This document shows positions 12,301-38,742 of a DNA stretch of 44,274 nt, piece by piece. A model generated the notes under the pieces. That model ran no database searches, had not been told where the DNA came from, and worked only from the letters and a program-made list of their open reading frames with translations. This stretch comes from Catajapyx aquilonaris. Lineage: Eukaryota. The number at the start of each line of letters is the position of its first letter. Position 1 is the stretch's first letter. The stretch covers positions 1-44,274 of the forward strand of contig KZ538866.1 in assembly GCA_000934665.2 (NCBI GenBank), written 5' to 3'. A program made the position numbers and the translations under genes.

Positions 12301-15300
12301 TCCACTAGCATCATCCCAGGCCAATGTCCGACTTTCCCCGTTCAGGATCCTCCGAGTGGTAGAACGGGACGGAAGCATCCGGGCTGTCCGAAGTGGTGGT
12401 GCCGACACCCCCTTTGAATGCTCCAGGCAAGGATTCTATCGACACCCACAATCCTGCAACCAGTTCTATCGTTGTGTCAAGTTTCATCAGCTGGTTGACG
12501 ACTTTACGGTGTTCGAGTATGACTGTCCGCCTGGGCTTGTGTTTGATGAGAAATGGGAAGTGTGTGTGAGGCCCTTCGACACTGCTCCTTGCGGAGGATC
12601 CAGCGAGATCTTCCCGGTTCCAAGGCAGAAGTTTGTATGCCCTGGAGAAGGTTACTTTACTGATCCAGAGAACTGTCGTTGGTTCTTTGCATGCCGCGAC
12701 TACATGAGAGACGGAAATATGATACAGTACGAGTTCAGGTGTCCTTTCGGTTTGGCCTTTGACGAAAGCCACTTGATGTGCAATTGGCCATGGCTAGTAG
12801 ATTCGTGTGATAACAGTGGATACCCTAATGGCTTTGACAAAGGTCACCAGGTTGTGACCCAAATATCTCCTATTGTTGTGGGACCAACTGTATCAACATC
12901 AGGACTTGGAACTAGGGGGGACAAGTTTGTTGATCGCGGAAGTTCCGCAGGAACCACTAGAGGCTTTGAGCATACATCATTGAAACCAACTGCAAGAGGT
13001 GGGCCTACCTTGACATCGCGTATTACTGGGACCGCTCATACTCAGAGTTCACGGTCAACAATTGGAGGGTTACCAGCATTAACCCAATCTGGTAGAGGCA
13101 GCACGGGGGCACGTTTCACAAGTGGTATTAGTCCCACAGCTAGAGGAACAAGTCAGGGTTATTCAGGCGCAATTTCCACTCCAATAGGCCCAGGAAGAGG
13201 AGGAAAGACCGCTGATTTTAGCAGCAAAGCGCCTTTCATTCGTACTGTCCCTACAGAAACTACTTATAGTTCTCTGGGCACCATATCTACACCTTCAGGT
13301 AGAATATCGACTGGCTACAATAGCAAGACACCCTTTTCTGGCAGTAATACTGCAGGAACAAGTCGTGGTTCTCTGGGAACAGTTTCCGCGACTATAGACC
13401 TGGGCAGAGGCACTCAGTCTACTATTGGGGTTCCTTTTAGTAGCTTGAGTTCTACAGGCACAACAGCTAGTTTTGGCACAGGAGGATCACGTGGAAGCAC
13501 GCCCACGTTGCCGTCCTCGGTTCAAACTGGCAAAGTTGTAATTCCATTCTCTACTGTCACTTACGGGAGCCCCGGTACCAGTAGTTTTGGAACGTCAGGC
13601 ACCAGTTTTACGGGAACTAGTGCAAATAAAGTACCAACTCTTTTTGCTGGATCCAGTTCTCCAAAAACTGATGCAGGCAGATATGACAATACTTTTGGGG
13701 TGACAAATACCGGGAGAACTACTAGCAGATTTAGAACTACTAGCGGCGATATCGGAGTAGGTACTGACGTGAGCAGATTTGAAACCTCTTTCGGTGGCAG
13801 CGGTAGTACAGGAACTACAAGTTCTTTTGGTGGTGCTATTCCTTCAGGAACTAGTGGAGGAAGATTTAAAACTACTTTTGGTGCCAGCGGTAGTACAGGA
13901 ACTACAAGTTCTTTTGCTGGTTCTGTTCCTTCAGGAACTAGTGGAGGAAGATTTAAAACTACTTTCGGCGCCAGTGGTAGTACAGGAACTACGTTTGGTG
14001 TTACCATTCCTACAGGAACTAGCGGAAGCAGATTAAAAACCACAATTGATGGCAGAAGTACGGCCGGGGCTAGTATAAGCAGATTTGACATTACATCTGG
14101 TAGAGCAAGTATTCCTACTCTTGCAACGCACTCTATTGATGTAGGTGTCAGGACTGAAGGAACTAGTTCCGGTACATTGGTAACACCTTACGCTGGCACC
14201 AGTTCCGGAAGTTTTGTTAGCTACGGAATTGTAACTCCTGCGCCTGATAGGAACACTATTGGCAGTGTTTTGACTCCAAGTTTTGGAAGCTCGGGTACCA
14301 CTGGCCACATAGGGCGTACATCACTTGGCACTAGGACAAGCCCTAGAGGAACAACTGAAACTCCAATTGACATTCAAATAGCTACTTTTGCTTCTCCATC
14401 GCCTATCACTGGAGATGGAAAAGACAGGCAAACCATTGGAGGTAGTCGTCATACGCCTTTTGGCCCCATTACTCACACCTCTGGCCAATCCACTACCAGT
14501 TCATTTAGCATACCTTCAATACCGTCCACCCGGTACACAAATCCTCAAGTATCCCGCACAACAGCCGGATTATCACGTGGTTTTGATGGCACAACGAAAA
14601 GTTTGCCACCTGTAGGAACATCTGGACAGAGTAAAATTTCTTTGGTGACACAGTCACCAGGGCCAACATGTATCCATTGCCGACCGTCTTTTGGAATTAG
14701 TGTTGACGGTGGCACTAGCACGCAGCAATTTCCTAGTGCAAATCCAACCTATTCATACAATCCCAATCTCACTGGATCATCCGGTTCATTGGCATCGAGC
14801 GTATCATTTCAACCTTATACAAAAACTAGTTCAGGTAGCCCTCGTGGAGAAAATACCCGCTATCAGAACACACTTAGTTCTTTTGATCCTACGCAGGGGT
14901 TAGGGCCATCCACAAGGTATTCATCGACAGCCTCCGGTCGTGGAACGTCTTCAACAACAATATTTTTGACGGCTCCATCGCCCTCGTTTAGTACTAAATT
15001 GATATCTCAATCGACATCAAAACCAGTTCCAATAGGGCAGGCACTTACAACCGGCGGTGTTGTCATTTCTGAATCTGGAGTAAGGAGTACTGAGAGGACT
15101 ACACTTGAACCTTACAGATATACCATACCGCCATACAGTCCAACCCCTCGGACACTTACGCCCACAACGTACAGGCCTACACGCAGACCAACACTCAGAC
15201 CAACACTCAGACCAACACTCAGACCAACACATAGACCACCGACCACACCACCATCGGTTCCTCGTAGCAGTATAGATGAGGGATTAATAGTATCAGGTCC

Positions 15301-16807
15301 AACCAGACCATTTGATCGGAATCCAAACCCAGGCAAAATTCAATTGCCGGATGCGACACTAGCTTTCGGGGACCGACTCAATACTTTTACTAGGACTAAA
15401 TCTCCAGTATCGAAGACAACAGCATTTGGACCATCAAGCTCGGGTGCAACAAGAACCACAGGTTCTGAACGTATCTCTCAGCCTCCTGCAGGACTTACAG
15501 GAAGTATAAGTACAATAAGTACAAGTTTTGCAGGTTACGACACATCTAGAACCACAAGTTTAGGCTTAGGAACACGGAATCTGGGAGGATCTGTGTTTAC
15601 TGGCAGTGGGGACGGTACGAGTATCACTACCAAACTTCCAAGTCATGTAGGTTTTGACGCAACTCGAACTACAAGTTCAGGTTTTAGACCTAGTTCTCCG
15701 GGAGTATCCGTATCGGTTGGCGGTGGCGGTAGGCCCACAGCAACTATTTCTTACCCACAAAGTTCACTTAGCTATGGCACCTCACAATCGGGAAGAGGTG
15801 GTTCCAGTTCAGTAAAAATACCAATCCTTCCGCCAAACGTGGTCACACTCTCTACTGCATCTGTTGGCACTAGACCCAACCAGTTGGCGACCACTGAAAG
15901 AACGCAATTTAGGCCGACTAGTACCGTCACATACTCGACCCTTGGGTCATTACCCTCTCATGTTAGTGACACATCTCGGTTTTCAACAAACGGGTTGGGA
16001 AATCGGGTTGTCACTGACAGGATTACTGGTAAATCATCAACCCTTCTCACTGCCCCGACCTTTTCCTCACCTTTGCAAAGCAAAACCGTTAGGACCACAT
16101 TCCCCATAGGACCACCTAGAGGCAGTAGTAGTACCTTACCTGTTGCAGAATTTGGAACAAGCTTGTCAAGTAAACAGACTCATTTCGGAGGGGTTGGAAG
16201 TCTCAAGACGCCCGGAACACCATACACCAGACCTACAATGGGTGTAAGTGAGCCATCAAAATACACACCATCTGTCCCGTACATTACAGGCAGAGGAAGT
16301 CCAGGGTATGAATTTGAGGAAATTATTAGTAGTCCAGATATCGGTAGAGGTTCTCCTTCTACTAGTGGTAGGCATCCTACCGTTGCACCTACGATTGCAG
16401 CGACAAGTCGAGTACCAGGAGGTAAATCGGGAAGGATCAAAAACGTTGTTACGCTGTCGACCAAGAATCCTCCTCCTCTGCTTTCAAAATATGGGTTCAA
16501 AATCTTAATCGATCCTGAAAAATTTTCTGGGGTTGACAACCTATCATTTATTACCAGATTTAATGACAGCAACTGTGAGAGGCCAGGTCTATTTCGAGAT
16601 CCAGAGGATTGTAACAAGTTTTACGAATGTTATTATGACCCTAGCCTGAACGGATTTACCTTGCACTTGTTCAGTTGTCCGGTACAGTTGGCATATGACA
16701 GCGATCTCACTGGTTGTAATTGGCCATTCAATGGTCCTTGGTGCGAAGGGGACCGTCTACGACATTCACTAGATGAAAATGTGAGAAATTACCCTTTCAT
16801 TAAATAG
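9331..16807 (+). CDS. Group X-like chitinase-like protein: signal peptide, degenerate GH18, 2x CBM14, mucin-like region, C-terminal CBM14 (~1900 aa, 8 coding exons)
   Basis: Phase-consistent GT-AG exons 9331-9430, 10335-10472, 11030-11262, 11322-11455, 11517-11625, 11698-11856, 11923-12045, 12101-16807 (5703 nt). Signal-like MALLLTTLILTVKG (alternative ATG at 9391). GH18 motifs KHVVCYY, CTHVIY, LLVSLG, DGVEIVWN, YDLEALS, GAPAEKLII, WVAFDD, KAKYALLRDLGGVAIFPIDADD. Three 6-Cys peritrophin-A domains (~12419-12810 for two, ~16574-16745 for the third). Confidence 0.88.
13775..14045 (+). repeat. 87-bp (29-aa) coding tandem repeat in the mucin region
   Basis: Units start at 13775, 13862, 13949 and 14030 (RFKTTFGASGSTGTTSSFxxxxPSGTSGG); the third unit is 6 bp shorter. 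Confidence 0.85.
15173..15243 (+). repeat. 12-bp coding repeat (RPTL)n
   Basis: cagaccaacact repeated; translates as RPTRRPTLRPTLRPTLRPTHRPPT. Confidence 0.85.
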
Positions 16808-17452: not shown

Positions 17453-19387
17453 CTATTTGTATGGGGTTTTTCGATAAACAGGCATAGAACGAATTACGCT
17501 AGAATAACCTGTGGTCATTGGTTGCGGAAACGCTGGTACTGCTTTGGGAAAAGCATTGGGATTTTCTTGCCTTATCAATTCAATAAGAGAAAGCTGACTC
17601 TCTTTTCTTGATAAAACAGACACATGTGGTTGATTATCTGTAGATTTGACAACAGTCACCACCTTAGATATATTATGTTTTACTACATTTTCTTGAATCT
17701 CGTTATTTCTTGCAGTTTCGGTGGTTCCTCTAGGTTTATATTCGCTCGGCACAGTAACATTTTCAGCAGGCTTGGATTTACGTGCAATATTTTGTGTTAT
17801 GCTTGAAACGTGTGCTTCCTGCGGTTTTAAATTTTCATACTCGACACTCGATTCTTTTTCACGATATGACTTTCTATCTATTTCATTAGCATGCGGTGTA
17901 ACATTTTGAACATTTTGCACGGTGTGTGGCAATATGTAACGATTCTCCGCGGGCATTACCTCCTCAGATTCGTACTGCTCGTCTCTTACAACAATTTGCT
18001 TACTATTCTGAACAGCAGGTGCATCGATATCGTCTAAAATAGGTTCACTTTGTTGTCGCAAAAATCGCCTGTTTGTTGCTGAACCACCATTGTTATTGAA
18101 ACTACTACCCACCGCCAGCTCCATATAAGGCTCTGGTTCTTCACTGCCATAAACTACTTGTGTGTCATGAACAGGCTTAAACAGAGATTCTACAGGAAGA
18201 TTTTCAGTTGAAAATACCCATGGATACCTAACCTGCTGGTCGTTTCCATTTGGCCAATTGTTAGTTACATGCATTTGCAAAGGCTTAGGTGTGCTACTAT
18301 CCCTTGGAGCTGGTGTGGTCTTTTCAGTCGGAGGTACTGTAGTAGTCACTTCCTCAATAGGTCGTTGAGTTGTCCTTCTCCTGATCTTTGGCTTCAAACG
18401 ATTGTATCTCGAATTTTGTAGTGGATTCAATCCTATATTTGTTGCTGGTGTAGTTGGGTTGTCATCTTTTTCATCAGGATTATTTAACACCACTTGAGCT
18501 CCTGGTCTCACAAAGCGACGTTTGACTGGGTTCCCTTCAGCAGGAGTAACATCATTCTTGGGTGGTTGCACGCTGGAATAGTTCTGAGCCGTATGGACCA
18601 TTGGGATGTTGACTTCTGGCCTAGGTTGGTAGACAAAATGTTCGACACTAGGTTGTGATATGTAGTATTCCGATGCTGCTGGAAGGTTGGGACCAAGAAC
18701 TTGAGGTCGTGGAGTGGTGAAGTAATTTGCAGGAAGGGAAGCTGCAGGTACAGATGTTGCAGGAAGTGATGTCATAGTAGGAGACAGGGGTGTCGCCGGG
18801 AGGGATGAAGAAAATGATATCGAAGGAAGTGATGCTGCTTGCAATGAGGCTGGAGGCAGTGATGCAACAGGGAGTGACCCTTGAAATTGTCCTGCCGGTA
18901 CAGAGTAAATCAGCTGAAGTCCCTGATACTGGGGCTGGGAAGTTTGGATCGGGTACACAGGATAAGAAGTCTGAACTACAGGTACGGACGGAACGGCAGG
19001 AACACGATACTGATAAGCATTAGGATATGAGTCTTGTCCGGTGCTGGTGAACAACTCGGGTGATGATGGAGATACATGGAAGTTTTTGTCGCTTCCCCAG
19101 GTACTAGAGACGAGACTTGAGACACTCGGTTGAGAAGACGGCCGAAAGTACTTCACGTACACATTGTGCCCATACTGGGACGAGGAGCCTTGATCAGTAG
19201 AATAGCCTCGGTGAGGGTCGCTGTTGGCAGGCTTCGGGTAGCTCACCATAGTATAGGAATAGTTGGGGGACACTGACCACGAGTCTCGTCCTTGCCTGTG
19301 AGTCTCGTTTTTCAGGGCTGAGCAGCTGCATGTCACCAAAAACATCCACATAATGACCATAGTAGGCCATAGGAGACTGGATGTTCC
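17453..19387 (-). CDS. Secreted low-complexity (P/S/V/Y/T-rich) protein, large terminal exon (>=635 aa)
   Basis: 1.9-kb ORF with hydrophobic N-terminus (LLWPTMVIMWMFLVTCSCSA). A strong acceptor (ttttttttctctctctctctcattag) ends at 19388 in frame, so the start is either ATG 19360 or an unlocated upstream exon. Contains ASLP repeats and a PTT-rich stretch; no domain recognised. Confidence 0.75.
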   Translation of the reverse strand, partial: GTSSLLWPTMVIMWMFLVTCSCSALKNETHRQGRDSWSVSPNYSYTMVSYPKPANSDPHRGYSTDQGSSSQYGHNVYVKYFRPSSQPSVSSLVSSTWGSDKNFHVSPSSPELFTSTGQDSYPNAYQYRVPAVPSVPVVQTSYPVYPIQTSQPQYQGLQLIYSVPAGQFQGSLPVASLPPASLQAASLPSISFSSSLPATPLSPTMTSLPATSVPAASLPANYFTTPRPQVLGPNLPAASEYYISQPSVEHFVYQPRPEVNIPMVHTAQNYSSVQPPKNDVTPAEGNPVKRRFVRPGAQVVLNNPDEKDDNPTTPATNIGLNPLQNSRYNRLKPKIRRRTTQRPIEEVTTTVPPTEKTTPAPRDSSTPKPLQMHVTNNWPNGNDQQVRYPWVFSTENLPVESLFKPVHDTQVVYGSEEPEPYMELAVGSSFNNNGGSATNRRFLRQQSEPILDDIDAPAVQNSKQIVVRDEQYESEEVMPAENRYILPHTVQNVQNVTPHANEIDRKSYREKESSVEYENLKPQEAHVSSITQNIARKSKPAENVTVPSEYKPRGTTETARNNEIQENVVKHNISKVVTVVKSTDNQPHVSVLSRKESQLSLIELIRQENPNAFPKAVPAFPQPMTTGYSSVIRSMPVYRKTPYK

Positions 19388-20004: not shown

Positions 20005-22773
20005 CTTCGGCGATACGAAGCGTGAAGGATATGAGAATAATTGAAGAGTCCATTTGCAAAGAGTTTCAAATCCACCTTCTGTGGAGCTGAGATTAAAGTT
20101 TAAAATTACATATGTTGAATAAATTCAAATGCGATCTAGCCTACCTGTCGCCCTAATTTTTCTGTGATAGTCACCCAAACATATTTTGGTACCATAAAGT
20201 TTTAAAATGTTACTCGTGTATTTTTCCAGTTATCTAATTTTCAATTTGGAGATAAGACACTTTGCTTCTGTAATGCGGATATACCTGTAAGAAATGATTT
20301 TGTACCACACCACCGTATATAAAGGTTTTGGTGTTCTTTGTGCTAGCATGAGACCTGCAATATTTCCATTACTTGTATTATCAATACTAATGTAACCTGT
20401 ATGACTGTAACGAAACCTGAGTGTATCGGAAATTTGTTCATTACCTTTTCTGGAGTGCACCAGAGAGGAGAAGAGAGCTGTTATATTAGGTTTTGGGCAT
20501 CGAACTGACAAAATAATCCAATCGAAATCGAATACAGGCACTACCGGGCACTACACGGATATGCAACGTATCTTGCAGTCACTGTCTTGTCTACGATTGC
20601 TGTATCTATAGGCTACCGGTATTTCAGAATATGAAATATTTGATAGATGTTCCACTGCCAGGTAATGGAATGGAGTCGTGACACCTGAAATATTTTCTCC
20701 ACTTGCAGGCAAATGACTGCGAAATACTGTACAATGCATGACATAATTGGACTTTCCGCTTCTAGCAATAATTAAGATTCCATTTAATTTATTACACTTA
20801 AATATATTTAATAATTTTTTAATAGTGACAGCCAAAGTACATCAATGCATTGCACCAATGCAATATAAAACTTTTGAGCTTATACAGTGATACTGCGATT
20901 TGTGAGGGCAATTTTAAACTTATTATTGTAAAATTAATAAAATGGTATATTCGCCCTTATTCTCCTTAATGCCGATGATATCTACATTGCGCCTGTGGTT
21001 GCCAATTCATTAATTCCTTTGTGCATGATATAGTCATATAGAGTAAGCTCTTTTATCCATTTAGGCTTGAAGGGGCGCCGCCATCTTTAAACAAATTTTA
21101 TCTTACACTACACATATGGACAAACTGCCTAAAATTATGAGTAATACCAATCAACAACAGTCGCTCTCAAACGTCACCACAAACGGTGAATTTTGAAACA
21201 CTTTGGTGCACTTATATCTTCTTCAAATTTCTTTGTAACGTTTTACTAAATTCAAAAATGCCATTTAAGTTTGTTGTTTTTGAGGCTTTCATAACGCTTC
21301 TAGTCCAAAAAATAATTTAACAATGCCGACAAAAATAACAGTCAGGATTATGACATTAGAAATAATTGGAGAGATCACATAATAGTTTTGTAAAAATGCC
21401 GCAATATTTTATTAATTATTTGCATGAAATAAATAATTTGCATGCATGATTTATTATGTTCAGGAATAAAGCCCGTTTTATTCGAAAAATATACACTGTC
21501 ACTGGCTATGTACTTGTAATATATTATATTATACTTATTATAGACTACCTGAATTCGAAAAGCGGTATCATATTTTAATGTAGCTTATAACCTAATATTT
21601 ACCTTATTACTTATTAATTAACTGCAACGTGTAAGTTATACTTCGTCATGTATACTTCGTCTCCTATTTAGGAAGATCCCACCCACCCACCGCCTGTAAA
21701 CTATACGAAGGCAGAATTGCGTGAATATACCCCTGAATTGGCTCTAATGTCAAGGACAGGAAACACATGGAGGGTATACCGCATACTGATAACTCCACAA
21801 ACCGAATGTTTGGTACTTGCCATTTTGATGAGTCAACTCTTCAAGGCAATCCAACTGTCAGAGAGCTTCCAGACACAACCTCTTCTGTTTGACCCTTCTC
21901 CTTGAATTGAACTTTTACCCGAGAAGATTCTGGGGTCGCCGTTTTTAAAACCGCGGCAACTAAGAGATCGTAACGGTAACGGATCATTTTGACAAAAGAG
22001 GTCCAGTTTCAAACCCAAACTTAGACGAAGGGGTCAGCAGGTCAAGCGGAAACAGTTTTAATGGAGTAGTAACTGTAAATATAGAAAGTGAAATTCCATG
22101 AGGTGGACTTTGCAGGTTTATTATCAGCCTGTCTATTCAACATCACATTGTTCGTTCCGTGTTATTGCACTATGCAAGATTACTGTAAAAATTTGTGTTA
22201 ATCTTGTTCTAAATACGTATATAAGTACTATCAGTTCAATGTCAGGCCGTCAAAATAATTAATTACAATGTAGTGTATGCTGTGACTCATGCAATGTTTT
22301 GCGTAAGATATGTTTAGAAATGTCACGGACAGATTGAATTTACGGTACTGCATATTTCCTTTTTGCAATGCCGAACTTTTCTTGTTGGCCTTCAATACTG
22401 CAACGTGGGAGCTCCGGGTATGCAGTCAAGGTGAAGGATAATAATTATCTTATAGTGAATGTTGTTCTTCCCAGTCAAGAAAGAGTTGTGCATATAATTT
22501 TTCCATAGCAAATGAGAATTTATGTGGCCCAAATCATTGTTTTAAATATATAAGCTGGAACCCAGAGAAGTTCCATCATCCTGCAAATTTTCCTGCCGGG
22601 AATGTACAAGAACGACACCTGTAAATCGACATCCTAGAGTATGCAGTAAATAGGGTGTATTGGAAATGTTTACAAAGTACCGTGCCGGTACATAAAATGG
22701 CTGATAACAAGATAAATAGGCAAATGGAGCATGATGCTTATAATCCGAGCAGAAATAATAACTATGCATAATT

Positions 22774-22781
<8 letters not shown>

Positions 22782-22849
<68 letters not shown>

Positions 22850-23141
22850 GATACCCCATTAGCAGCCCTTTAGGCTTTATTAGGGGGCCGGGGGATTTCT
22901 CCCAATTTTTTTTTGTTTGTCTGGAACTCTTTCCATTTTTACTATACGTACTTTTCATCGGAATTGAGGCAAGGATAGGTAAGGAAGGAAGCGGCTGTGG
23001 CCTATAATTACGGTACCGACCCCGGAATTATCCTGCGGTGACCATGGGAAACCACAGAAAACCATGATCAGGGTCGCCGGCCTCCGGGATTCGAACCCAG
23101 GACCTCCCGATTAGCAGTCGGACACCACTTCTGCTTCGGTG
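22782..23141 (-). mobile_element. tRNA-derived SINE with (TTA)n tail and 13-bp TSD
   Basis: Minus strand shows a tRNA-like head with B box GGTTCGAATCCC (~23085-23098), a core ggttttctgtggtttccc...caggataattccgggg, and a (TTA)n 3' tail. Direct repeat TAATTCTGAATAA at 22769-22781 and 23142-23154. Confidence 0.8.
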
Positions 23142-23557
23142 TAATTCTGAATAACAATACATATTTAACGTGGTCTTTTATGGTGCAGTACAATGTACTT
23201 CTGACTCAGCCAAACACAGTATAAAATCTTTCAATATCGATCTTTAATATTACCGCCGTATCATACCCAAATGTTCAAGAAGGGTCAATATTACGAGCAT
23301 TTTTGGGAGTGCAAGTCCAAGCATATAATTATTATCAGGAGGTTTATTCTTAACCTACAGTTATTTAGCAGTCCATAGCAGGAGATCAATGTGGTGTGGC
23401 ATGTGCATTGCTTGTTCTTTAGGTTTGTTCTAAAATACGTATATGCTCATATTTTAAATTATTCTTGACTGACCGAAACGGAAGCGGAAAAATCTCGTAA
23501 ATTTCTTCATCGGGATTGCAAATTGTAAGCTTAGAAGTCATAAACTCATAGCTGCCC

Positions 23558-23630
<73 letters not shown>
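23558..23630. repeat. (TTA)n microsatellite
   Basis: About 24 perfect units. Confidence 0.95.
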
Positions 23631-23631
<1 letters not shown>

Positions 23632-24154
23632 AGTTGACTACGGATAACAGCATCGGTTATACCAGACTCGAAAGGCCGGTCTTGGCAAACTTCCATAAGG
23701 TCCTGTGTATTTTTACTCCTGATATAACATACTAATTTTCATCTTATCTCGGCTATAACAGACCATATTTTGGCCCATCGCATCGGCGGGAAAATATGTT
23801 GTTTTTGATTGTTTAACTTCCTTTCCCATGCACAGGAAGGCAGAGAATACTGGATCGGGGGAGATTTTCGTATCTGTCACTCATCTAAGATACTCAAAAC
23901 CATACTTTTTCTGGTACGTACATTTGCAACAAGGGGACGGCAGAAGAAAATTGAGAATTTTTTTGGTCCTGCATAATTTACGGGTGAGATAATTTTGAAT
24001 TTTTGCGGATAGTTTCATTAATGTATGCAGCCTATGGAAAGCAGAAAACTTCTTGTATTCGTAGCAAAAGTGGCGATTTGTCTATAACAGACCTCGGTTA
24101 TAACATACTTTTTCCGCAGTCCCTTGAAGTCTGTTCTATATCAGGAGTCAACTG
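23631..24154. mobile_element. Tigger/pogo-like MITE
   Basis: TA|CAGTTGACTACGGATAACAG ... CTGTTCTATATCAGGAGTCAACTG termini, with internal (g)ctataacag / gatataaca repeats typical of Tigger-type ends. Confidence 0.6.
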
Positions 24155-24231
24155 TTTTATTATTCTGCTTCCATGACAACATAATATTACCTTGTTTTAT
24201 ATTGCATAGCTATACAATAGTAGTGCCAAAG

Positions 24232-25674
<1,443 letters not shown>

Positions 25675-30130: not shown

Positions 30131-31776
30131 ATTATACATACTCTCAAGTATGAACAAATAAAATTAAGATATAAGCCAACTTGGCATAACTACTATTTCT
30201 TCCGCTGCAACTATCTCCTATGCTCGTTTTGGCACTTAACTTTGGTGCATCTTTTCTCGTGTTACGAAGATTCAGGGAATTGTGAAAGTTATATTGAGAA
30301 CTCTTCAAGTCTGAATTTGGTGTAAAATAGCTATTGTTGTTTTGAATAAAAAAGTAATACAGTAATTATTACAAGTATATCTGAGCGTTTATATTCTCAT
30401 TCGCAATAAGATCGACATTTTATGAGATTCCCGATATCGATCATTTAACGGTAATTGCTATCAGCATGTGCATCGATATCCCAATAAAAATAATAGCTAC
30501 TCAAATATACAGTATGAGCAGGACTATACTGCAGGCCTCTGAGGAGTAACATTATCGGTTCTGTTTAGAGACAGACATCATTGAATATCAAAATACAGAA
30601 ATATTTTATTGCAAAAAAGAAACCTATACGTGTCATAGACAATATTAGTTAATATGCCTTTCACTTTTTTGCACTTTTTCACAATAGCACTGCCCAAGGC
30701 AACAGCAGTTGCTGAAAATTAAACATACACATGCGACTAGACAGGCTATTACATATACGGTAAGTAATTGTTGAAATGACAAAAAGCAAAAATTATAACT
30801 ATCAAAATACATTTCAACTGATAATATTGTGCGGAACAATATATGTCTCATAATCATACGTATAGCTACAGAACAATAATTCCGGGAAGTCCACAAGAAT
30901 ACTAGTATATACTGTGCAATATAGTGATACTCAAGCTAGCATTGCACTCTGTTCGTACAATTGAATTCATTCAGGATTCAGATGTGGTCAAGGTCAACAT
31001 ACTAATTACTCCTGCTGGAGATGTGACATTAAAAACGAAATGTTCAAAATCTTTAATACAGTACAATGCAATTCACATTTTATGTATTGACTTGAAGTGA
31101 GAAATTATCAAGGAATTGCCACTTCATATAACGTAAACGGTGACCAATGTTGCAGGCTTGTAGACAGATTATTAAGCATAGGCCTACCCATCCTAATTTT
31201 TTGCACTGAGGACCTTTAGCTGCCTTGTGACTGCAGAATATATTTATTTTCAAGATCGAAATCAGAGCGCCCAATACAGAGTTGAGGCTGGGTATGTTCA
31301 CATAATGTCCCATCTCCCATACACGAGAAGGAGTGGTAATGCATTTATGTATCCAAATAAAGACCTGAATTACAGTGTATAATAATAAGAAACAACAGTT
31401 ACAATCGGTAGTTCTCAAATTCCGGTGATCTCCATATTACTGTAAGCCATTATATCCTCCATTTGGTGATAAGGTAATTCATGACCAGTGAGTAAATATT
31501 GCGACTTTAAGTTTATTGTAAATTAAACATTGGGAGCTTCAGGACTTTCAGAGTCTACCATTACTATCAATATCGGATGGAAGTCCTGGTGACATCGAAA
31601 GTTACGACGTACTGTACGTGGTATTATGAAATGTTTTTAATTAATTAATTTATTTATTTTCCTACCCCGGACTCTCGCTTGGGGGTGGTATCATGAGATG
31701 TATAATGAATAGTCAACAACAAAATAGGTTTATATGGATATACCAAGTTAAGTCCATTACCATATACAGTATCTTT

Positions 31777-34700
31777 CTAATACAGGAACGTATTAAAGGG
31801 ATAGTAGTATGGCGTGTGGGCATGAACAGAGTAAGTCAGGACTGGCACTTCTTGCTCCGTTTCCTTCAGCTCTATCTTCTTAGTGTCAGCAGGGGTATCG
31901 GCTTCCACTGGCTGGTAAGTCCGCACCTGTTAATTCAGCATAACTTATGTAATTTGACCATCATTATCACTTATGTACCGTAGTAATTATATCGGTGATC
32001 GACCAGATCGCGTATTACACCGGTATAATATTGATACTACAAGATCTTTATCAATACCTTGATCTTAGTTGTTGCAACTGCAGGCACAACAGCCAGAGTG
32101 TCCCTCTTCTTCCTGAAGAATACCGGATGAGTGACGTAGGGATATCCCAGGTAGCTGTAGGTCAAAGGTACACTATGCTCATGCTCGGTCACCTCCAACT
32201 TTTTGGTGTCGGCTGGAGTGGCAGCGTCCACAGTCTTATATTCCTGAACCTAAGGAAATAATAATGCATTAGTATGTTCTCGACTATTATACAAATAATT
32301 GGGCTTATTCAGATAATTGGGTCGAACTGGTTTTCGCCCATCATCCGACTGGTTTAGATTAGCGTAATAAATACTGACATGTAATGGAAACATCACGCTA
32401 TGTCAGTGGCAAACACTGCGGTAACACAGCACATAACACTGCATGTCAGATGTGCGTGCGCAAGAAAAACATGACCATATACGGTACCTTGATAGTTGTT
32501 CCGACAAGAGGATGATGGACAACCCCCCTCTTCTTACGGGCCGGGGCATTGCTGGCAGCCGCCTTTGCTTCGTCAAACACACGCTGGAATTGGGCTTTGG
32601 CAGCACTCACCTGGATTAAGGGACAGTGACCTGAACTGACACGGAACCTAAGATGGGGATGAGGCGCCCAAGCACGTGCTTCCATCCACATGCCCAGACA
32701 GAATAGGAGCCCGTTACATGCCCCATAAAAACCACTTTTTTCCTCATTCCCTTTTTCCTCTCAAGTAGCTGCTGTTCTGCCCCACTGAAACGGTGCTTGC
32801 TGACTATTAGCATATATGGCCTGCATCTTGTCCCAGATTCAGTTGAGAAGGAACGAAAGAGAAAGAGAAAGAAAAAAAAGAAGTAGGGGTATGGGAAAGT
32901 GGGCTGAGCGAATCCTTGTGGTGTTATACGCATTTTTATGGATAGAACTAGGTTGCTGGTTGTTGTAGCTCACAGGTAAGGGTCAGAGGAAAGGGAATGT
33001 TTAAGGTTGTGTTGAAGATTCATGCAAAGAGTGACGTAGTTTTCCGCTTCGTTGGTCATTATCGAAAGAAACGAATGAGTTAATTGTGTCATTGGAAACA
33101 AAGGTTGTCTTGTTGTTAAGGTAATTATAATGTTAAAAATGTCAAAAACTGGATGGAGTAGTCGTGTGTACAGTCTGACCTGTTCTACTGATCTACTTTA
33201 TTTTCTCTGCACAAGTAAAGCAATTTTGCCGAAATTATGAGTTATGACATCAATCATTCTCAATATTTTTAAAAAGAACTAGTTCCGACCAGACAGGTTT
33301 AAATAAACGGGGTATTAAACTCATTTCATTTTAAGCACAATTTATTATAAAATTACGTTACTGGCAAGTCAGAAATTGAACAAAAATATTGTGTTGTGAG
33401 AGATCTATGAGCTGTATGACTTCAAAGAAGCAATAATTTTGCCAGTAACCGTTTGCACTTTTTCACCTTTTTCCAAAAGTACACTTTAAAAAGTTTCAAA
33501 ATGACAAATATGACTCCCTCCAATCCACCACCTTGCTCTTCAACTTCAGCTTCAAACCAGGACGTGCTATAAGCAGAGATTTCTGTCCGACCTTTGAGCA
33601 GAGCAAACCCCGCGGATGGACGATGGTGACCACCCATATAATCCAGATTTGGAATACCCCCACTTGTACGCTTTTTTTTCTTGTTAGATTCCGATGATCC
33701 AGATTTATTTTTGCTTTTGGTTTTGGAATTTGAATTTGAATTTGAATTTAATTTGAAATCAATTGAACCTGTCCGAGCTTTGCTGTCTGAATTATTTTCG
33801 GATAGTGTTTGAACTGCTGGTTTCAGCAAAGTGTTAATTTCGTCACTGTAAGCTTCCAAGAGGGTCGAGTTGAGAATCATATTCCTGAGGAAATTTGGTA
33901 TCTTCGTTACCATGTTAGAAAACTGTTGGAATCTAGATATCGCTTTTTTCAGAGTGAAAAGTTCCTCAAATTTTTCCTGCTCGGACGAACTAAGAACTTC
34001 CAAATCATCTTCGTCCACTTCGTCCATGTCGTCTAATAGCCTGTCAACTTCCTTCGATGAATAATTTTTGTCCTTGTCGAAATTACTGACCAGTTTTCCG
34101 AAATCTACTCCTGCTTTTTTAAGCAAGTTCACATGCTTCGACTCCAGTACTTCCCCTTCGTAATCACCGTCTTCGTCACCGTCACCGCCTCCTTCGTCAT
34201 CGTATTCGTCGTCAAAGTCAAACATGTCATAAAACTTGTCATTTTTCTTAGACGTTGAGTAAAATCGGATTGGCTTCATTTGCGTCCAGTTCTCTCCGGA
34301 GTCTTCGTCACTGTCAGAGTCACCGTCACCCCACCACAAGTCCTTTCCTAAAGCCTGACGGTCACGTTTTGAACGCCTCAAGGCAATCTGATGAGTAAGC
34401 GGGTAAAATCTTTTACTACCCCATTTTTTTCAGAATGTTTAGTTATGTACTGCTTATTCTCTAGGTTAGGTCATAAATAATGGCAAGTGACAAAAAAATG
34501 AACAGTTTCTTCCCCAACCCCATCCGTACCTTTTCATTCATCAAAGTTTCAGTATATTTATAAACGTGGTCAAACGTCTCAAAGTTTTTATATGGGCTAC
34601 ACATTATGGCTTACCTCTGGGGTGTCATTGACTGGTTCTGGCCCTTTCAGGTCAGCTGTTGGAGCTTCTGGAAGGTTATTTGCGCCGGTAACTCGAAATC

Positions 34701-36276
34701 CACCTGAGTCGGCTACATAGTTGACCTGAGAAATAAAGAGAAGAAAAAGAACGACAAATTTGGATTCGGACCGTGAAGTGACTCCTGGCGAGAGAAAACT
34801 CATAAACCCATGTAGGCCTCTACTGGGATTCGAACCCAGGTCCGTGCTCACGAGGAGCACGTGTTCTGCCCCTAAACTATAGAGGCTTTTAGGTCGAGTT
34901 TTCCACTTAAGCAAATGCGGTGGTCATTTGATTTTACAAGATAAAATAATTACTTTTGTTCAGGGTACAAACAAAGGTGGCTAATGTGGAGAATGAGGCA
35001 TTACTGGTTGAGTAGTTGTAACCTTGCTCCAACTGTTATTTTAAAATTATTTGCTTCCAAAATATATTTTCTGCTATTTCTCTTTTGTTTCCATCAGTCT
35101 TCACATACGCAAAATTTAACCCGCAATTACCGTTGGCAATAACGTTATCATTCAGCAGCCAAAGCCCAGTTTAATCAAGCAAAAGTAAATCTTTATGACA
35201 AGTGTATCTATGTTTTGGCAAGTAATTGCTACAAACAAGTAACAAGGAAAAACCCACGGTATATCATTAACATTCAGTAATGAAATTAATACTAAATTAT
35301 AACACATTTAAATACCAATAATTTATTGTTATTAGCAGCCAACTTATGCTACCATATGCATACAACAGAGCAAACCTTTCCACGGCCTAGGTGCTATTGT
35401 GCATTTTCACTCCCTTTGACACCCACTCCTGTCCTCATTAGCATACTGATAGAGATTTAAAACGTGCAAACTAGAACTTCCTTACGAGCTCCCAATAACA
35501 GGCTAGTAGGCTAATGGCAAGGTCGAAAGGGAAGAGGCAGCAATTAAGGGAAAGATTTAGGTTCAGTGAAGACATCAAATTCAAGAATTTGAAGGCCAAG
35601 TCTTACTTGAACAACTTTGTGGTTGGGATCCACATAACTGTAGGATCCAGCCACGCCTCCACCTAGTCCTTTGGTTTCCACTCTGGCCAGTCCAGGGCTG
35701 GCATGCCCAAAACTGTAGTGACCCAACGAATCCTGGGAGTGATACTGGCTGGCCACAGGTCCATATGGCACAAACGTGTAAGGGTAGGCAAAATGCACAG
35801 CCGAGGTCAACCCTAGCGCCAGGGTCAACAACACGAACTAGGGGGGAAAATGGTGATGAAAAATCGGACACTGGAGATATAGGGGTAGGCTATATAAATG
35901 CCAATTCACCGTTTGAAAATTGGGAGGCGGCATTTGGCCCCCCCACAGAGAAACCGATTCTTGCGCACAAACACGAACACTCGTTTACAACTGCATAATG
36001 GGCACTGGATTCCTAGGCATAAGGTTTCCACCATCCACTCCTTCTCAGACTGTGACCCATTCTGTCCTTCTTGGAAACATCGTGTCCTGTATTCCTCATT
36101 CGCCACTTTTACATACTCCCCTCCTCCCCAACTTCCCCAAACGTAGTGGAGGAGAAGAGAAAAAAACGAAAAGAAAAACGAGGCACAAGGGCGCACTCTG
36201 ATGGGTGGCACTACTCGTCTTTGGAATATCTGAGAGTGTATGGAGGTAGAAATCGGTCACTGACCTCAAATTTCAT
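31777..36276 (-). CDS. R&R (Chitin_bind_4) cuticular protein with 18-aa motif and two RKKR-delimited repeat modules (272 aa, 6 exons)
   Basis: All phase-0 GT-AG exons: 36276-36265 (MKFE), 35837-35607, 34725-34615, 32610-32488, 32249-32058, 31926-31777. Signal MKFEFVLLTLALGLTSA. R&R SQYHSQDSLGHYSFG...GSYSYVDPNHKVVQ|VNYVADSGGFRV. 18-aa motif PVNDTPE|VSAAKAQFQRVF. Two RKKR sites and two xAxTPADTKK modules. Confidence 0.88.
33422..34387 (-). CDS. Acidic 321-codon exon within intron 3 of the cuticle gene (alternative terminal exon or nested gene)
   Basis: Acceptor ttactcatcag|ATT at 34388. In-frame stop at 34430-34432 with no ATG between it and the acceptor. RSKR site, D/E-rich block, basic/hydrophobic tail. 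AATAAA at 33346-33341 on the minus strand. Confidence 0.65.
   Translation of the reverse strand: MALRRSKRDRQALGKDLWWGDGDSDSDEDSGENWTQMKPIRFYSTSKKNDKFYDMFDFDDEYDDEGGGDGDEDGDYEGEVLESKHVNLLKKAGVDFGKLVSNFDKDKNYSSKEVDRLLDDMDEVDEDDLEVLSSSEQEKFEELFTLKKAISRFQQFSNMVTKIPNFLRNMILNSTLLEAYSDEINTLLKPAVQTLSENNSDSKARTGSIDFKLNSNSNSNSKTKSKNKSGSSESNKKKKRTSGGIPNLDYMGGHHRPSAGFALLKGRTEISAYSTSWFEAEVEEQGGGLEGVIFVILKLFKVYFWKKVKKCKRLLAKLLLL
34790..34885 (-). repeat. tRNA-like SINE head fragment
   Basis: Minus strand ...ggacctgggttcgaatcccagtagaggc (B box). A similar ggacctgggttcgattcccagcagaggc lies on the plus strand at ~10930-10958. Confidence 0.45.
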
Positions 36277-37354
36277 GCAACGATGAGAATGAGTGGTGTT
36301 CGACATTTACATAACAAGTAGGGTCAAACCGATAACTACCGTGGATGCCGCATTACGTGCTAACGGGATTTCCCTCAATGTTTTCAAAGAGCGTCAATTA
36401 TTTATAACAACTTATTCTAAGCAGTTATTCATTGCAGTCCGATTAACATTCATTCATTCATTTCACTCACGGCATATTCCCACCAGCGATGACCAGGTAC
36501 AATCCACCTGGCCATCTCGTACGATCAGTATAATGAATCCTCTGGTGACTGGTCAGGCCACGCAAAGGATAGTTCGATTAACAACTAATGTAATTATTCC
36601 TCGAAAGTTGTCAACTAGGCCTAAAGTAAGGAAAGAAACTTACAAGAGCTTTCATGGTTGCTTCGTGAGCTGCCAAAATGCTACTATCAATAACACAGAG
36701 GTGATGGTCTCTTTATATGAGGCTGCAGGCTATATCCAACAGTATAGAGATGAATGCGGTGGCAGCAGCCACGCCTGCGAAGCGTCAACAAAACCATCAA
36801 AAAAGTGACCCCACCCTACCTTCCTTGTTGTCCTTCAAGCAAGGAGCTCTCCTGATCATCCTCTTTTGGTGGTGTTTATAGGAAGAGGTTTTCCGCATAT
36901 GTAGCCGGCCTATCTTCAGTTTCGTCAGTTACCTGCCTGTTGACCTCAAAGCAAAAATTGCCTTCAGGGGTAACATGCCACGCAGTATGACAAATGGCTA
37001 CTACTTTTTTGATGGGACAATTTGCCAAAATGATAATTAATATTTCAGAGAAACTGCACACTGACCCAGTCAGGTTTATTATGTAGGCTTCTTGTAGCAA
37101 GTTTCATTTACTGGAAAATTCAAAGGAACGTCATAATTTAGTGTAGCATATGAAAATATGCAAAATTTCCGTATGCATTATTCACCTATATTAGTCACAC
37201 ATTATGGTAATTGATGATATCACGTCTACGTAAGACGAAATTGTTATTAAAATAATTTATGGTCGGATGCAATGGATATTCAATAAATAATTAAGTTCCC
37301 CTGGTCTGGTTAAGAGACAATAATTAATTATCAGATCATTACACCATACAAGTA

Positions 37355-38050
37355 CGAGGGCTGTAAATTAAATAGTGGTAACTATTTAATTACTTGGGAG
37401 TTGGGACTGGAAATGCATGGCAGCTTCAATGTAGTCACCAGCATTGTGGAACACATTAGCGATGTGGAAGTCGAAGGATGCCATTGCCCAGCGCTAGTTT
37501 GGTTGATGTTTCGTATATAGAACGGTCTAAAGCGCGAAAGGTCTGGGATAGTCATACCCAGACGTTTCTTGAGAATGTTCAGGATAGTCATACTCGACAA
37601 GCCTGTCCCACTGGCTAACTCACGAACTGTCTACCTCCGATCGTTCTCCATCAATGTGGAAAGAGCAGCCACTTGTTCCTCGTCACTTGCATTTGGATGG
37701 GGATCATATGTCACGTTTTGCCTTCCCTGACGGAAAGCATTTCCCCACCTTCCAACCGTCCTATATGGCAATGCATGTTCCCCACAAACTTGTAAAAGCC
37801 CTTCATGACACATTTTCCATTTTTAACCAGGACCTTTGCTCAAATTGGGAAAACATCACCTTTAGACCGGTTGATTGCAACAGCTCACGTTATACTTTTT
37901 ACTGCCCATGCGCATACTGAGGTGGGACGATCCCATGTCCTGAGGTTAGATCATCAAGACCTAACCTGCCTGTGGCATAAGCGGTGTAAACTTCCTATAT
38001 TTCACTGATTTTCTAGAGATGTGTTGCCACTATTTCATTTACAGCCCTCG
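37355..38050 (-). mobile_element. Internally deleted mariner (Tc1/mariner) element
   Basis: TIRs TA|CGAGGGCTGTAAATTAAATAGTGG and CCACTATTTCATTTACAGCCCTCG|TA. Degenerate transposase N-terminus on the minus strand: EQRSWLK, CGEHALPYRTVGRW..AFRQGR, DRR*TVRELA...ILKKRLGM. DDD domain deleted. Confidence 0.85.
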
Positions 38051-38187
38051 TATACGGTAACAACATCCTCCCTCTGCATTTCGTCATCAGTCGTCTGTTA
38101 TTTAGCATTGTCTCACCAGAACATAAACATGTGGTATAATTATCTAACATTCACAAGCGAAAAGTGCGCTTTTTTCGTGGAGGAAAT

Positions 38188-38405
38188 TACCGAGGCGGCC
38201 TGGTTGTTTGGCGCACAGGGGTTCGAATCCTGGTGCAGAGCAACAGTTCTGACAGGTGTTTTCTGTGGTTGATCCGGGTCACTTATTCCAGGATAATTCC
38301 GGGGAGGTTACCGTTTCAGTATGCCCATATCAGCTTTCTTCCGGCCTTATCTTATTGTCCAAATGTGCCGTACAAAAGTGGGCTGTGTAAAACGAGAAGA
38401 TAACC
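38188..38405 (+). mobile_element. Diverged tRNA-derived SINE related to 22782-23141
   Basis: B box GGTTCGAATCC plus shared core gttttctgtggtt...caggataattccgggg...cagc.....ttcc...ccttatc. Confidence 0.6.
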
Positions 38406-38742
38406 CCCCATGTAGGCCTATACTATACTCAAAAATTCAGCTAACATCCGACATCGGTATGACCATCGCATCGGTGGCATGAACGCTCCTGATTGAAATT
38501 GGGCACCACTCGCACTCCAACGACAGAGGTGTCTAACTTTTACACGCTCCGTTAAAAATTGTCTGACGTTATTGCTTAGAGTCCTTAGACACTAATTGGC
38601 CTAATTCCAGGGCTGAAAAAGTAGGTAGATGTTTAAAATAGTGTAGCCTACGTGATATCACAAGATTTTTCCCAACGAGCATAAATGGGACCACCTCTGA
38701 ATTCCGGCATAAGGATATTATGCTATTTGGTGATATTCAATA

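What the first reader, a model, noticed from the sequence alone, without database searches (positions are those of the whole stretch)
33422..34725. Hidden alternative C-terminus: chitin-binding R&R domain switchable onto a 321-aa acidic module
Seen: inside intron 3 of the cuticle gene, on the same strand, is an intact 966-nt ORF with no ATG between its upstream in-frame stop and its acceptor. The acceptor is phase 0, lies 227 nt after the phase-0 donor of the exon that completes the R&R domain, and the ORF has its own AATAAA. Splicing gives signal-R&R-PVNDTPE|IALRRSKR-then a D/E-rich block (GDGDSDSDEDS, DFDDEYDDEGGGDGDEDGD, DDMDEVDEDD), an S/N/K linker and a hydrophobic/basic tail (GVIFVILKLFKVYFWKKVKKCKRLLAKLLLL). 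Established: acidic chitin-binding proteins such as crayfish CAP-1 take part in crustacean cuticle calcification. Inference: alternative 3' exon choice toggles this gene between a structural polyprotein and a mineral-interacting, possibly membrane-tethered or furin-released form. The switch also cuts the 18-aa motif in half.
Basis: partly seen in the sequence, partly recalled or inferred. Interest (0 to 1): 0.75.

Follow-up and report, generated by a model that had tools for sequence, protein, structure and literature searches.

The report
Orphan open frame inside cuticle-gene intron
A long, intact protein-coding frame with no known relatives sits inside an intron of an arthropod cuticle-protein gene and carries the signals of an alternative final exon, but whether it is ever spliced onto the chitin-binding part could not be tested here.

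Summary
On the minus strand, a 335-codon open frame (33422-34429) lies in the 2004-nt intron 3 of a signal-peptide/R&R cuticle gene. It has a phase-0 CAG acceptor at 34388/34387, 227 nt after the phase-0 donor of exon 3, a TGA stop at 33424-33422 and AATAAA 76 nt after the stop. Such a frame did not arise in any of 4000 intron-sized or 100 window-sized random sequences. The 321-aa product has no relative in 1.84 billion proteins, Pfam, PDB, the ESM Atlas, or metagenome and viral contigs. The databases also lack close relatives of the host gene (best 48%), so this says little. New points in favour: the acceptor is as good as the gene's own. A furin-type RSKR lies at residues 5-8, mirroring the RKKR sites in canonical exons 4 and 5. 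No other signal-peptide first exon was found nearby. Points against: no RNA run was listed, and no genome or orthologue was available. A membrane anchor is not supported, and nothing ties the product to mineral. A weak SET/NAP resemblance failed an independent test. My estimates are 0.45 for an alternative last exon, 0.25 for a nested gene and 0.25 for a young relic.

The parts
36644..36655 (-). Host gene exon 1, coding part: ATG plus three codons (MKAL), donor GTAAGT, phase 0
35607..35837 (-). Host gene exon 2 (77 codons): rest of the signal peptide and the N-terminal part of the R&R chitin-binding consensus; phase-0 donor
   Evidence: Chitin_bind_4, E 1.2e-05, 26 bits against cut-off 25, profile 2-47 of 66; hydrophobic h-region
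34615..34725 (-). Host gene exon 3 (37 codons): C-terminal part of the R&R consensus and the first half of the 18-residue motif (ends PVNDTPE); donor GAG|GTAAGC, phase 0
   Evidence: (Chitin_bind_4 profile 46-63 of 66, E 0.0075, below cut-off on its own)
34388..34614 (-). 227-nt stretch of intron 3 between the exon 3 donor and the candidate acceptor. It has a pyrimidine-rich tract and CAG at its 3' end. It also holds TATA-like motifs and a 4-codon ATG...AAG|GTACGG mini-frame (34541-34530) that could start a nested gene
33425..34387 (-). 321-codon open frame. In order: RSKR site at residues 5-8, acidic disordered part 1-84, predicted helical part 85-197, S/N/K-rich linker 198-258, two C-terminal helices ending in a basic amphipathic tail
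33422..33424 (-). TGA stop of the open frame
33341..33346 (-). AATAAA, 76 nt after the stop; candidate polyadenylation signal of the alternative exon or nested gene
   Evidence: 12.3% of minus-strand positions have one 20-150 nt downstream
32488..32610 (-). Canonical exon 4 (41 codons): second half of the 18-residue motif (VSAAKAQF...), then RKKR
   Evidence: (aphid homologues carry DTPEVAAAK...EAKKAA uninterrupted)
32058..32249 (-). Canonical exon 5 (64 codons): repeat module with TPADTKK and a second RKKR
31777..31926 (-). Canonical exon 6 (49 codons plus stop): second copy of the repeat module. AATAAA follows at 31658 and 31654
   Evidence: (61% identity to exon 5 over 33 residues)

Best explanation
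The open frame is a real coding exon. It is most likely an alternative last exon of the cuticle gene, used through the exon 3 donor (34615), the CAG acceptor (34388/34387) and cleavage and polyadenylation shortly after AATAAA (33346-33341).

This exon choice competes with splicing to exon 4 at 32610. When it wins, the mRNA encodes a 439-aa precursor instead of the 272-aa canonical one. That precursor has the same signal peptide and complete R&R chitin-binding domain, and the 18-residue motif is truncated after DTPE. Eight residues later comes an R-S-K-R proprotein-convertase site, followed by a 313-aa lineage-specific module that is acidic and disordered, then helical, then S/N/K-rich, and ends in a cationic amphipathic tail.

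The canonical tail also carries R-K-K-R before each of its two repeat modules. The likeliest logic is therefore that of a secreted polyprotein: the gene's promoter, signal peptide and R&R head are shared, and the cargo released behind the first convertase site is swapped.

Shown here: the frame, its improbability by chance, the splice and polyA signals, the convertase motifs, and the lack of relatives.

Inferred: that the acceptor is used, that the product enters the secretory pathway, that it is cleaved, and anything about its role.
For: (1) The frame is far beyond chance. 0 of 4000 intron-sized, 0 of 100 window-sized and 0 of 5000 own-composition simulations reached it, and the other frames hold 13-35 stops. 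Base use by codon position looks like coding sequence.

(2) The frame is open for 50 codons upstream of its first ATG. The acidic cluster upstream of that ATG is a DNA repeat of one further in (family D1: 34301-34339 against 34157-34195). Coding therefore seems to begin before any start codon, as expected of a non-first exon.

(3) The acceptor has 12 of 16 pyrimidines before CAG. Only 71 such sites exist on the minus strand of 44274 nt, or 1 per 624 nt. The gene's five canonical acceptors score 13, 15, 11, 11 and 7. Its phase matches the donors of exons 1, 2 and 3, which are all phase 0.

(4) AATAAA lies 76 nt after the stop.

(5) R-S-K-R lies at residues 5-8. Of 100000 shuffles of the ORF, 7.0% have any R-x-K/R-R site, 0.53% have one within the first 25 residues and 0.16% within the first 10. 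Canonical exons 4 and 5 each carry R-K-K-R.

(6) A search of 34388-38500 found 96 ATG...|GT phase-0 first-exon candidates. The host's own exons are the only convincing signal peptide. The one other hydrophobic candidate (ATG 34803) simply reads through the pyrimidine tract of exon 3.

(7) Intron retention cannot deliver the frame, because reading on from exon 3 meets a stop after 5 codons.
Against: - There is no expression evidence of any kind. No RNA run was listed, so no reads could be laid.
- There is no conservation evidence. Hits were 0 at E<=0.001 among 1,835,955,588 representatives and none among 3133 word-sharing candidates. None were confirmed among 173 metagenome and 3 viral stretches. 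The same databases also lack close relatives of the host gene, with a best of 48% identity over 60% of exon 2.
- Third-position GC of the ORF (0.43) is below that of canonical exons 2-5 (0.53) and nearer the background.
- The signals counted in favour were noticed after the fact, and each is individually weak. Chance is roughly 0.08 for such an acceptor in phase within 150 nt, 0.12 for AATAAA and 0.07 for any convertase motif.
- An acid-plus-basic composition with a KKKKR run also suits a nuclear protein.
- The single-sequence structure model is uninformative, with mean pLDDT 44.4.
Confidence: 0.45

Rival explanations
1. It is a nested, independent gene inside intron 3, on the same strand as its host. 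It would be either intronless and start at the first in-frame ATG (34279, 285 aa), or have a small first exon of its own in intron 3 or 2. The product would be a cytosolic or nuclear acidic/basic protein, possibly a very diverged relative or retrocopy of a SET/NAP-type histone chaperone. Its transcript would use the AATAAA at 33346.
For: - An in-frame ATG exists at codon 37.
- A 4-codon ATG...AAG|GTACGG frame in phase 0 lies at 34541-34530, with TATAAATA just upstream.
- The composition (58 D+E, 50 K+R, a KKKKR run, one Cys) fits a nuclear protein.
- The top PDB match of the ORF is human SET. It scores E 0.03-0.05 and 16-18 bits, is colinear over ORF 94-231 against SET 8-150, and shares an identical KIPNF.
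- Against a profile of 8 SET-like proteins fetched here, only 2-5 of 1000 composition-matched shuffles reach the real domain score.
Against: - 50 open codons precede the ATG, and the ATG context is poor, with C at -3.
- Pfam's NAP family is absent even at E<=10, for the whole ORF and for four sub-segments.
- The independent test failed. The C-terminal 86 residues score -4.2 bits against the SET profile, and 994 of 2000 shuffles do as well. They also hit nothing in PDB.
- hhalign gives a probability of 18.5%.
- The three more divergent SET-like sequences score lower (8.2-8.7 bits) than the five that match the printed human chain (13.2-14.7 bits). A copy of an arthropod gene would be expected to do the opposite.
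- Plainly spurious Pfam matches reach similar E-values, for example a bacterial DNA polymerase III tau domain at 0.002-0.03.
- No poly(A) remnant or flanking duplication of a retrocopy is visible.
- This model leaves the RSKR at the exon start and the good acceptor as coincidences.
Confidence: 0.25
2. It is a young or decaying coding relic that is not used. It could be a fragment of an uncharacterised mobile element, or of a duplicated gene that landed in the intron recently enough to be still open. Its splice-like and polyA-like signals would be coincidental.
For: - No relative was found anywhere.
- The frame holds low-complexity and microsatellite stretches: (GAATTT)n at 33726-33757 and repeated GAC/GGT runs.
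- Third-position GC is near background.
- A mariner-type remnant lies close by at 37631-37822.
- Large arthropod genomes hold many unclassified elements (general knowledge).
Against: - There is no second copy in the 44-kb window.
- There are no terminal repeats or target duplications. The only flanking pair is a 14-of-17 match whose downstream copy lies before the AATAAA.
- There is no reverse-transcriptase, transposase or gag-like match.
- By inference, not computation: about 1 kb of unconstrained DNA with indel-prone repeats should lose its frame after roughly 1-2% divergence. The relic would therefore have to be very young.
- The acceptor, AATAAA and convertase motif would all have to be chance.
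Confidence: 0.25

Closest known systems
CPR cuticle proteins (R&R consensus, Pfam PF00379) carrying the 18-residue DTPEV motif
   Same: The host gene has a signal peptide, an R&R consensus split over exons 2 and 3 and the motif (PV)xDTPEVAAA(KR)AA... across the exon 3/4 junction.
   Different: The canonical tail is two ~64-residue repeat modules, each preceded by RKKR, with no Pfam match. The intron that splits the motif holds a 321-codon orphan frame.
Drosophila resilin (Rsl) isoforms RA and RB
   Same: This is a cuticle-matrix gene in which alternative splicing decides whether an R&R chitin-binding domain is joined to unrelated, largely disordered modules (bioRxiv 10.1101/2025.10.01.678482, passages read).
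   Different: In resilin a cassette exon removes the chitin-binding part, and both isoforms are demonstrated. Here the chitin-binding part would be kept and the tail exchanged through an alternative last exon, and nothing is demonstrated.
Acidic calcification-associated cuticle proteins of decapods (CAP-1, CAP-2, DD4/crustocalcin)
   Same: These are proteins of calcified cuticle, some with an R&R domain, thought to interact with CaCO3 (review PMC3335408, passages read). The predicted isoform would likewise pair R&R with acidic blocks.
   Different: No sequence similarity was detected in any search. The review itself says their in vivo functions 'remain speculative'. The RSKR site would separate the acidic module from R&R. 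The module is not purely acidic: it has 58 D+E and 50 K+R, pI 5.25. I recall that CAP-1 is a short peptide whose acidic tail sits on the same chain; I did not read this in a paper here.
SET / NAP nucleosome-assembly-protein family (Pfam PF00956)
   Same: It is the top PDB match, colinear over about 135 residues and including KIPNF. The match is above composition-matched shuffles.
   Different: There is no Pfam NAP match. The C-terminal half shows no similarity. hhalign probability is 18.5%. The part that would form the beta-sheet of the fold is a low-complexity S/N/K run.
Retrocopy captured as an alternative terminal exon (for example TRIM5-CypA; recalled, no paper read)
   Same: An intron-resident, intronless coding block without its own start would be joined to upstream host exons through a 3' splice site and its own polyA site.
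   Different: No parent gene, poly(A) remnant or target-site duplication could be shown here.

Membership tests
CPR cuticle protein (host gene) | R&R chitin-binding consensus (Pfam PF00379) | tested here: met
   Exon 2 frame scores 26 bits against cut-off 25, E 1.2e-05, profile 2-47 of 66. Exon 3 frame covers profile 46-63, at 17 bits on its own.
CPR cuticle protein (host gene) | N-terminal signal peptide | tested here: met
   The best 12-residue hydropathy window in the first 30 residues is 2.69, followed by TSA. This is a simple hydropathy check, not a trained predictor.
18-residue cuticle motif | (PV)xDTPEVAAA(KR)AA(HF)xAA(HY) | tested here: met
   Exon 3 ends PVNDTPE and exon 4 starts VSAAKAQF. 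The motif is as printed in PMC2542385. Aphid homologues carry it uninterrupted.
Alternative last exon | Usable 3' splice site in phase with an upstream donor | tested here: inconclusive
   The site is CAG with 12 of 16 pyrimidines, in phase 0, and as good as 3 of the 5 canonical acceptors or better. This is sequence only, and no trained splice model was on hand.
Alternative last exon | Own polyadenylation signal downstream of the stop | tested here: met
   AATAAA lies at 33346-33341, 76 nt after TGA. The chance of one at 20-150 nt is 12.3%.
Alternative last exon | Transcripts that join the upstream exon to it | not testable with these tools
   No RNA run was listed, so read laying could not be used. 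No genome is held.
Proprotein-convertase-processed secreted precursor | R-x-K/R-R site accessible in a protein that enters the secretory pathway | tested here: inconclusive
   The motif is present at ORF residues 5-8 and in canonical exons 4 and 5. Entry into the pathway depends on the unproven splice. The consensus is recalled.
Acidic calcification-associated R&R proteins (CAP-1 / crustocalcin type) | Sequence relationship or demonstrated calcium or CaCO3 interaction | not tested
   No reference sequences were on hand for a direct comparison. The global searches gave no hit. Binding needs an experiment.
Single-pass membrane protein (the 'membrane-tethered' option) | Hydrophobic helix of about 19 or more residues | tested here: not met
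   The best 19-residue Kyte-Doolittle window is 1.43 (residues 286-304) and contains two lysines. The usual threshold of about 1.6 is recalled. The tail has a hydrophobic moment of up to 0.55, which fits an amphipathic helix better.
SET / NAP family | Match to the NAP domain profile over its length | tested here: not met
   Pfam NAP is absent at E<=10. The SET profile gives 7.5 bits over ORF 100-229 only. The C-terminal part scores -4.2 bits, matched by 994 of 2000 shuffles. hhalign gives 18.5%.

The most novel reading that the evidence does not exclude
One cuticle gene makes two different secreted polyproteins from a shared promoter, signal peptide and R&R chitin-binding head. By choosing a last exon hidden in the intron that splits the conserved 18-residue motif, it swaps its repeat-module tail for a lineage-specific 313-residue module that is acidic, then helical, then cationic. 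A convertase releases that module at RSKR, and it acts in the forming cuticle, for instance on mineral or matrix assembly at particular moult stages.
Probability: 0.15. Interest if true: 0.6.

Novelty: new variant of a known kind. Interest (0 to 1): 0.35.

Why it matters
If the splice is real, it would be a clear case of a structural cuticle gene being re-used as a delivery vehicle for a newly arisen protein. The vehicle would be its promoter, signal peptide and chitin-binding head, and the means would be an alternative last exon and a convertase site. That bears on how orphan genes gain expression and secretion, and on how cuticle properties are varied without new genes. It would also predict a truncated form of the 18-residue motif, which offers a natural test of what that motif does. 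If the splice is not real, this is an ordinary nested or decaying open frame, of interest mainly for annotation.

Tried and rejected
**Expression**
- No RNA holder was listed for 33300-34730, so no reads could be laid. This is no evidence either way.
- No whole genome is held for the window.

**Homology of the ORF**
- Pfam gave only sub-threshold, evidently unrelated matches.
- The word-indexed search gave none of 3133 candidates at E<=0.01.
- The exhaustive phmmer search gave 0 of 1.84 billion at E<=0.001.
- The ESM Atlas gave no usable hit, either for the whole ORF or for residues 80-205.
- Metagenome contigs gave 173 motif stretches and viral contigs gave 3, none confirmed.
- Earlier notes of this scan gave nothing in four look-ups.

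**Structure**
- The single-sequence AlphaFold2 model has mean pLDDT 44.4 and pTM 0.23. That is too poor for a fold search, so none was run.

**SET/NAP lead**
- I followed this up by fetching family members with a degenerate motif.
- The viral scan gave 9 stretches, and none lay in an open frame longer than 50 codons.
- The metagenome scan gave 15 loci, 8 of them with full-length SET-like frames.
- The profile, shuffle and hhalign tests left it as a weak lead only.

**Retrocopy and mobile-element signs**
- I found no convincing flanking duplication, no terminal repeats and no poly(A) remnant.
- There is no second copy in the window.

**Other first exons**
- 96 phase-0 ATG...|GT candidates were examined.
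- The candidate at 34803 has a hydrophobic stretch only because it translates the pyrimidine tract of exon 3.
- MNEK at 34541 remains possible for a nested gene.

**Other checks**
- Secretory-kinase S-x-E sites number 6 against 2.8 expected, P 0.048. CK2-type and N-glycosylation motifs are not enriched. This is too weak to use.
- I compared the starts of the alternative exon and exon 4 by eye, at the DNA level, for signs of exon duplication and saw none.

**Literature**
- A search for alternative splicing + cuticle protein + Rebers-Riddiford + crustacean found 2 papers, neither on such a case (listing only).
- A search for cuticular protein + furin + polyprotein + dibasic found nothing relevant among the 10 papers listed of 72 (listing only).
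- I therefore found no printed description of a comparable isoform in these searches. Subscription journals are largely outside the library.


Full report
**1. What is there**

The host gene lies on the minus strand and reads as follows:
- Exon 1 is 36655-36644: ATG plus three codons, donor GTAAGT.
- Exon 2 is 35837-35607, 77 codons.
- Exon 3 is 34725-34615, 37 codons.
- Exon 4 is 32610-32488, 41 codons.
- Exon 5 is 32249-32058, 64 codons.
- Exon 6 is 31926-31777, 49 codons and the stop.

All donors are in phase 0. Exons 1-2 give a hydrophobic signal-like N-terminus. Exons 2 and 3 together cover positions 2-63 of the 66-position R&R chitin-binding profile.

Exon 3 ends PVNDTPE and exon 4 begins VSAAKAQF. 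Together these rebuild the published 18-residue cuticle motif (PMC2542385, passage read). Aphid homologues carry that motif uninterrupted. The canonical exon 3 to exon 4 splice is therefore well founded.

The canonical tail carries R-K-K-R in exon 4 and again in exon 5. Each site precedes one of two related ~64-residue modules.

**2. The observation**

Intron 3 is 2004 nt long (34614-32611). It holds a same-strand open frame of 335 codons from stop to stop, at 33422-34429.

- The site ...ctcatcag|ATT puts a phase-0 acceptor at 34388/34387, 227 nt after the exon 3 donor.
- From there the frame is 321 codons plus TGA.
- No ATG lies in the 14 open codons before the acceptor. The first in-frame ATG is codon 37.
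- AATAAA follows the stop by 76 nt.

The frame is not chance:
- 0 of 2000 first-order and 0 of 2000 second-order Markov versions of the intron reached 335 codons (maxima 239 and 238).
- 0 of 100 window-sized simulations reached it (maximum 265).
- 0 of 5000 sequences of the ORF's own composition were open.
- The other five frames carry 13-35 stops.

It is the third-longest open frame in the window.

**3. What the product looks like**

The 321 residues have 58 D+E and 50 K+R, pI 5.25, and a single Cys. In order they comprise:
- An acidic part, residues 1-84 (pI 4.1).
- A part predicted helical, residues 85-197.
- An S/N/K-rich basic linker, residues 198-258, partly encoded by a (GAATTT)n microsatellite.
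- Two C-terminal helices ending in a cationic, amphipathic tail.

The structure model has mean pLDDT 44.4 and was not used further.

The best 19-residue hydropathy window is 1.43 and contains two lysines. A membrane anchor is therefore not supported, and an amphipathic helix fits better.

**4. Relatives**

None were found:
- Pfam.
- The word-indexed search, 3133 candidates with none at E<=0.01.
- The exhaustive search of 1,835,955,588 representatives, 0 at E<=0.001.
- The ESM Atlas.
- Metagenome and viral contigs, 173 and 3 motif stretches with none confirmed.
- The rest of the window.

This silence is weak evidence, because the collections also lack close relatives of the host. The best match to exon 2 is 48% identical over 60% of it, from aphids. 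A conserved neighbouring chitinase-like gene finds an amphipod at 61% as its best named match, followed by a copepod, dragonflies and branchiopods. The organism is therefore a pancrustacean from a poorly sampled lineage. Whether it calcifies its cuticle is unknown.

**5. Evidence bearing on the alternative-exon reading**

*For:*
- The acceptor has 12 of 16 pyrimidines before CAG. Only 71 such sites occur on this strand of the window, or 1 per 624 nt. The gene's own acceptors score 13, 15, 11, 11 and 7.
- Coding seems to start before any ATG. Fifty codons are open upstream of the first one, and the acidic cluster there is a DNA repeat of a later one.
- R-S-K-R occupies residues 5-8 of the exon. 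Only 0.16% of 100000 shuffles place such a site within the first ten residues, and 7.0% have one anywhere. It mirrors the R-K-K-R sites of the canonical tail.
- Among 96 possible phase-0 first exons upstream, none but the host's own supplies a credible signal peptide.
- Reading through the exon 3 donor meets a stop after five codons, so only splicing could join the two.

*Against:*
- There is no RNA evidence, no genome and no orthologue.
- Third-position GC is 0.43, against 0.53 in canonical exons 2-5.
- AATAAA is common here. 12.3% of positions have one 20-150 nt downstream, and one lies inside the ORF at 33709.
- All supporting signals were noticed after the fact.

**6. A lead that changed little**

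The top PDB match of the ORF is human SET, a NAP-family histone chaperone. The match has E 0.03-0.05, is colinear over about 135 residues and shares an identical KIPNF.

If real, this would favour a nested nuclear-protein gene or a captured retrocopy. I fetched 8 full-length SET-like frames from metagenome loci using a motif taken from the tool's own alignment and built a profile.

- The ORF scores 7.5 bits over residues 100-229.
- That score is reached by only 2-5 of 1000 composition-matched shuffles. This test is not independent of how SET was picked.
- The independent test failed. The C-terminal 86 residues score -4.2 bits, as do 994 of 2000 shuffles, and they hit nothing in PDB.
- Pfam's NAP profile never appears, even at E<=10.
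- hhalign gives 18.5%.
- The three more divergent SET-like sequences score lower than the five human-like ones.
- Evidently false Pfam matches reach the same E-values.

I keep this as a lead worth an HHpred run, at roughly one chance in eight.

**7. Mechanism, with odds**

*Most likely (0.45): an alternative last exon.* Splicing from 34615 to 34387, with cleavage after AATAAA, competes with splicing to 32610.
- It yields a 439-aa precursor instead of the 272-aa one.
- That precursor has the same signal peptide and R&R domain, and the 18-residue motif is cut after DTPE.
- RSKR follows, and then the 313-residue orphan module.
- If a convertase cuts there, as it presumably does at the RKKR sites of the canonical form, the module is released from the chitin-binding head rather than attached to it.

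*Rivals:*
- A nested independent gene (0.25).
- An unused young relic of a gene or mobile element (0.25).

By inference only: about 1 kb of unconstrained, repeat-bearing DNA should lose its frame after roughly 1-2% divergence. The frame is therefore either constrained or very recent.

**8. Comparison with what is known**

- Splicing that decides whether an R&R domain is joined to other modules is established for Drosophila resilin, where a cassette exon removes the domain (bioRxiv 10.1101/2025.10.01.678482, passages read).
- Acidic cuticle proteins such as CAP-1, CAP-2 and crustocalcin are linked to calcification. A review states that their in vivo functions remain speculative (PMC3335408, passages read).
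- Nothing here links the ORF to them beyond acidity.
- My literature searches (listings only) found no description of a cuticle gene that swaps its tail through an intron-hidden last exon. The library lacks most subscription journals.

**9. Verdict**

The alternative-exon architecture is plausible and internally coherent but untested. The calcification and membrane-tether ideas are unsupported. This is a modestly interesting annotation-level candidate that a single RT-PCR or one RNA-seq data set would settle.

Noticed in passing
window 34815-34886 (-): A tRNA-Arg (anticodon TCG) gene lies in intron 2 of the cuticle gene, on the same strand, about 90 nt upstream of exon 3. ARAGORN calls it and Rfam scores it 47 bits against a gathering score of 29. 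It could be a working tRNA gene or the head of a tRNA-derived SINE.
   Followed up: partly
window 31777-32610 (-): The canonical tail of the cuticle gene consists of two related ~64-residue modules (TPADTKK...VP.LTYS...), each preceded by R-K-K-R. It has no Pfam match, which suggests a convertase-processed polyprotein whose released peptides are undescribed.
   Followed up: partly
window 32605-32613 (-): Exon 4 starts with GTGAGT directly after its CAG acceptor, so the junction reads like a juxtaposed acceptor and donor (a recursive-splice-site look). The letters also encode the conserved V-S of the 18-residue motif, so this may be coincidence.
   Followed up: no
window 10885-16807 (+): A chitinase-like gene has GH18 exons followed by a single 1568-codon exon carrying three CBM_14 chitin-binding domains and a very long S/T/G-rich mucin-like stretch. 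The best named relative is a Hyalella azteca protein at 61% identity.
   Followed up: partly
window 17453-19387 (-): A 644-codon open frame has a signal-like start, is rich in S/P/Q and has no Pfam match. It may be another lineage-specific secreted protein in this chitin-related neighbourhood.
   Followed up: no
window 37382-37822 (-): A remnant of a mariner-type transposase lies just upstream of the cuticle gene. The HTH_48 match has E 0.0017, below Pfam's cut-off.
   Followed up: no
window about 22700-25150: Long homopolymer-codon and microsatellite runs flank an assembly gap of 51 N. The simple-repeat content is typical of large crustacean genomes.
   Followed up: no
window 33913-33908 (-), inside the ORF: A phase-0 ATG|GTAACG donor-like site lies at codon 159/160 of the ORF. 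If used with exon 4, it would make the first 159 codons an in-frame cassette exon instead of a terminal one. The donor is weak, with no G at +5.
   Followed up: no
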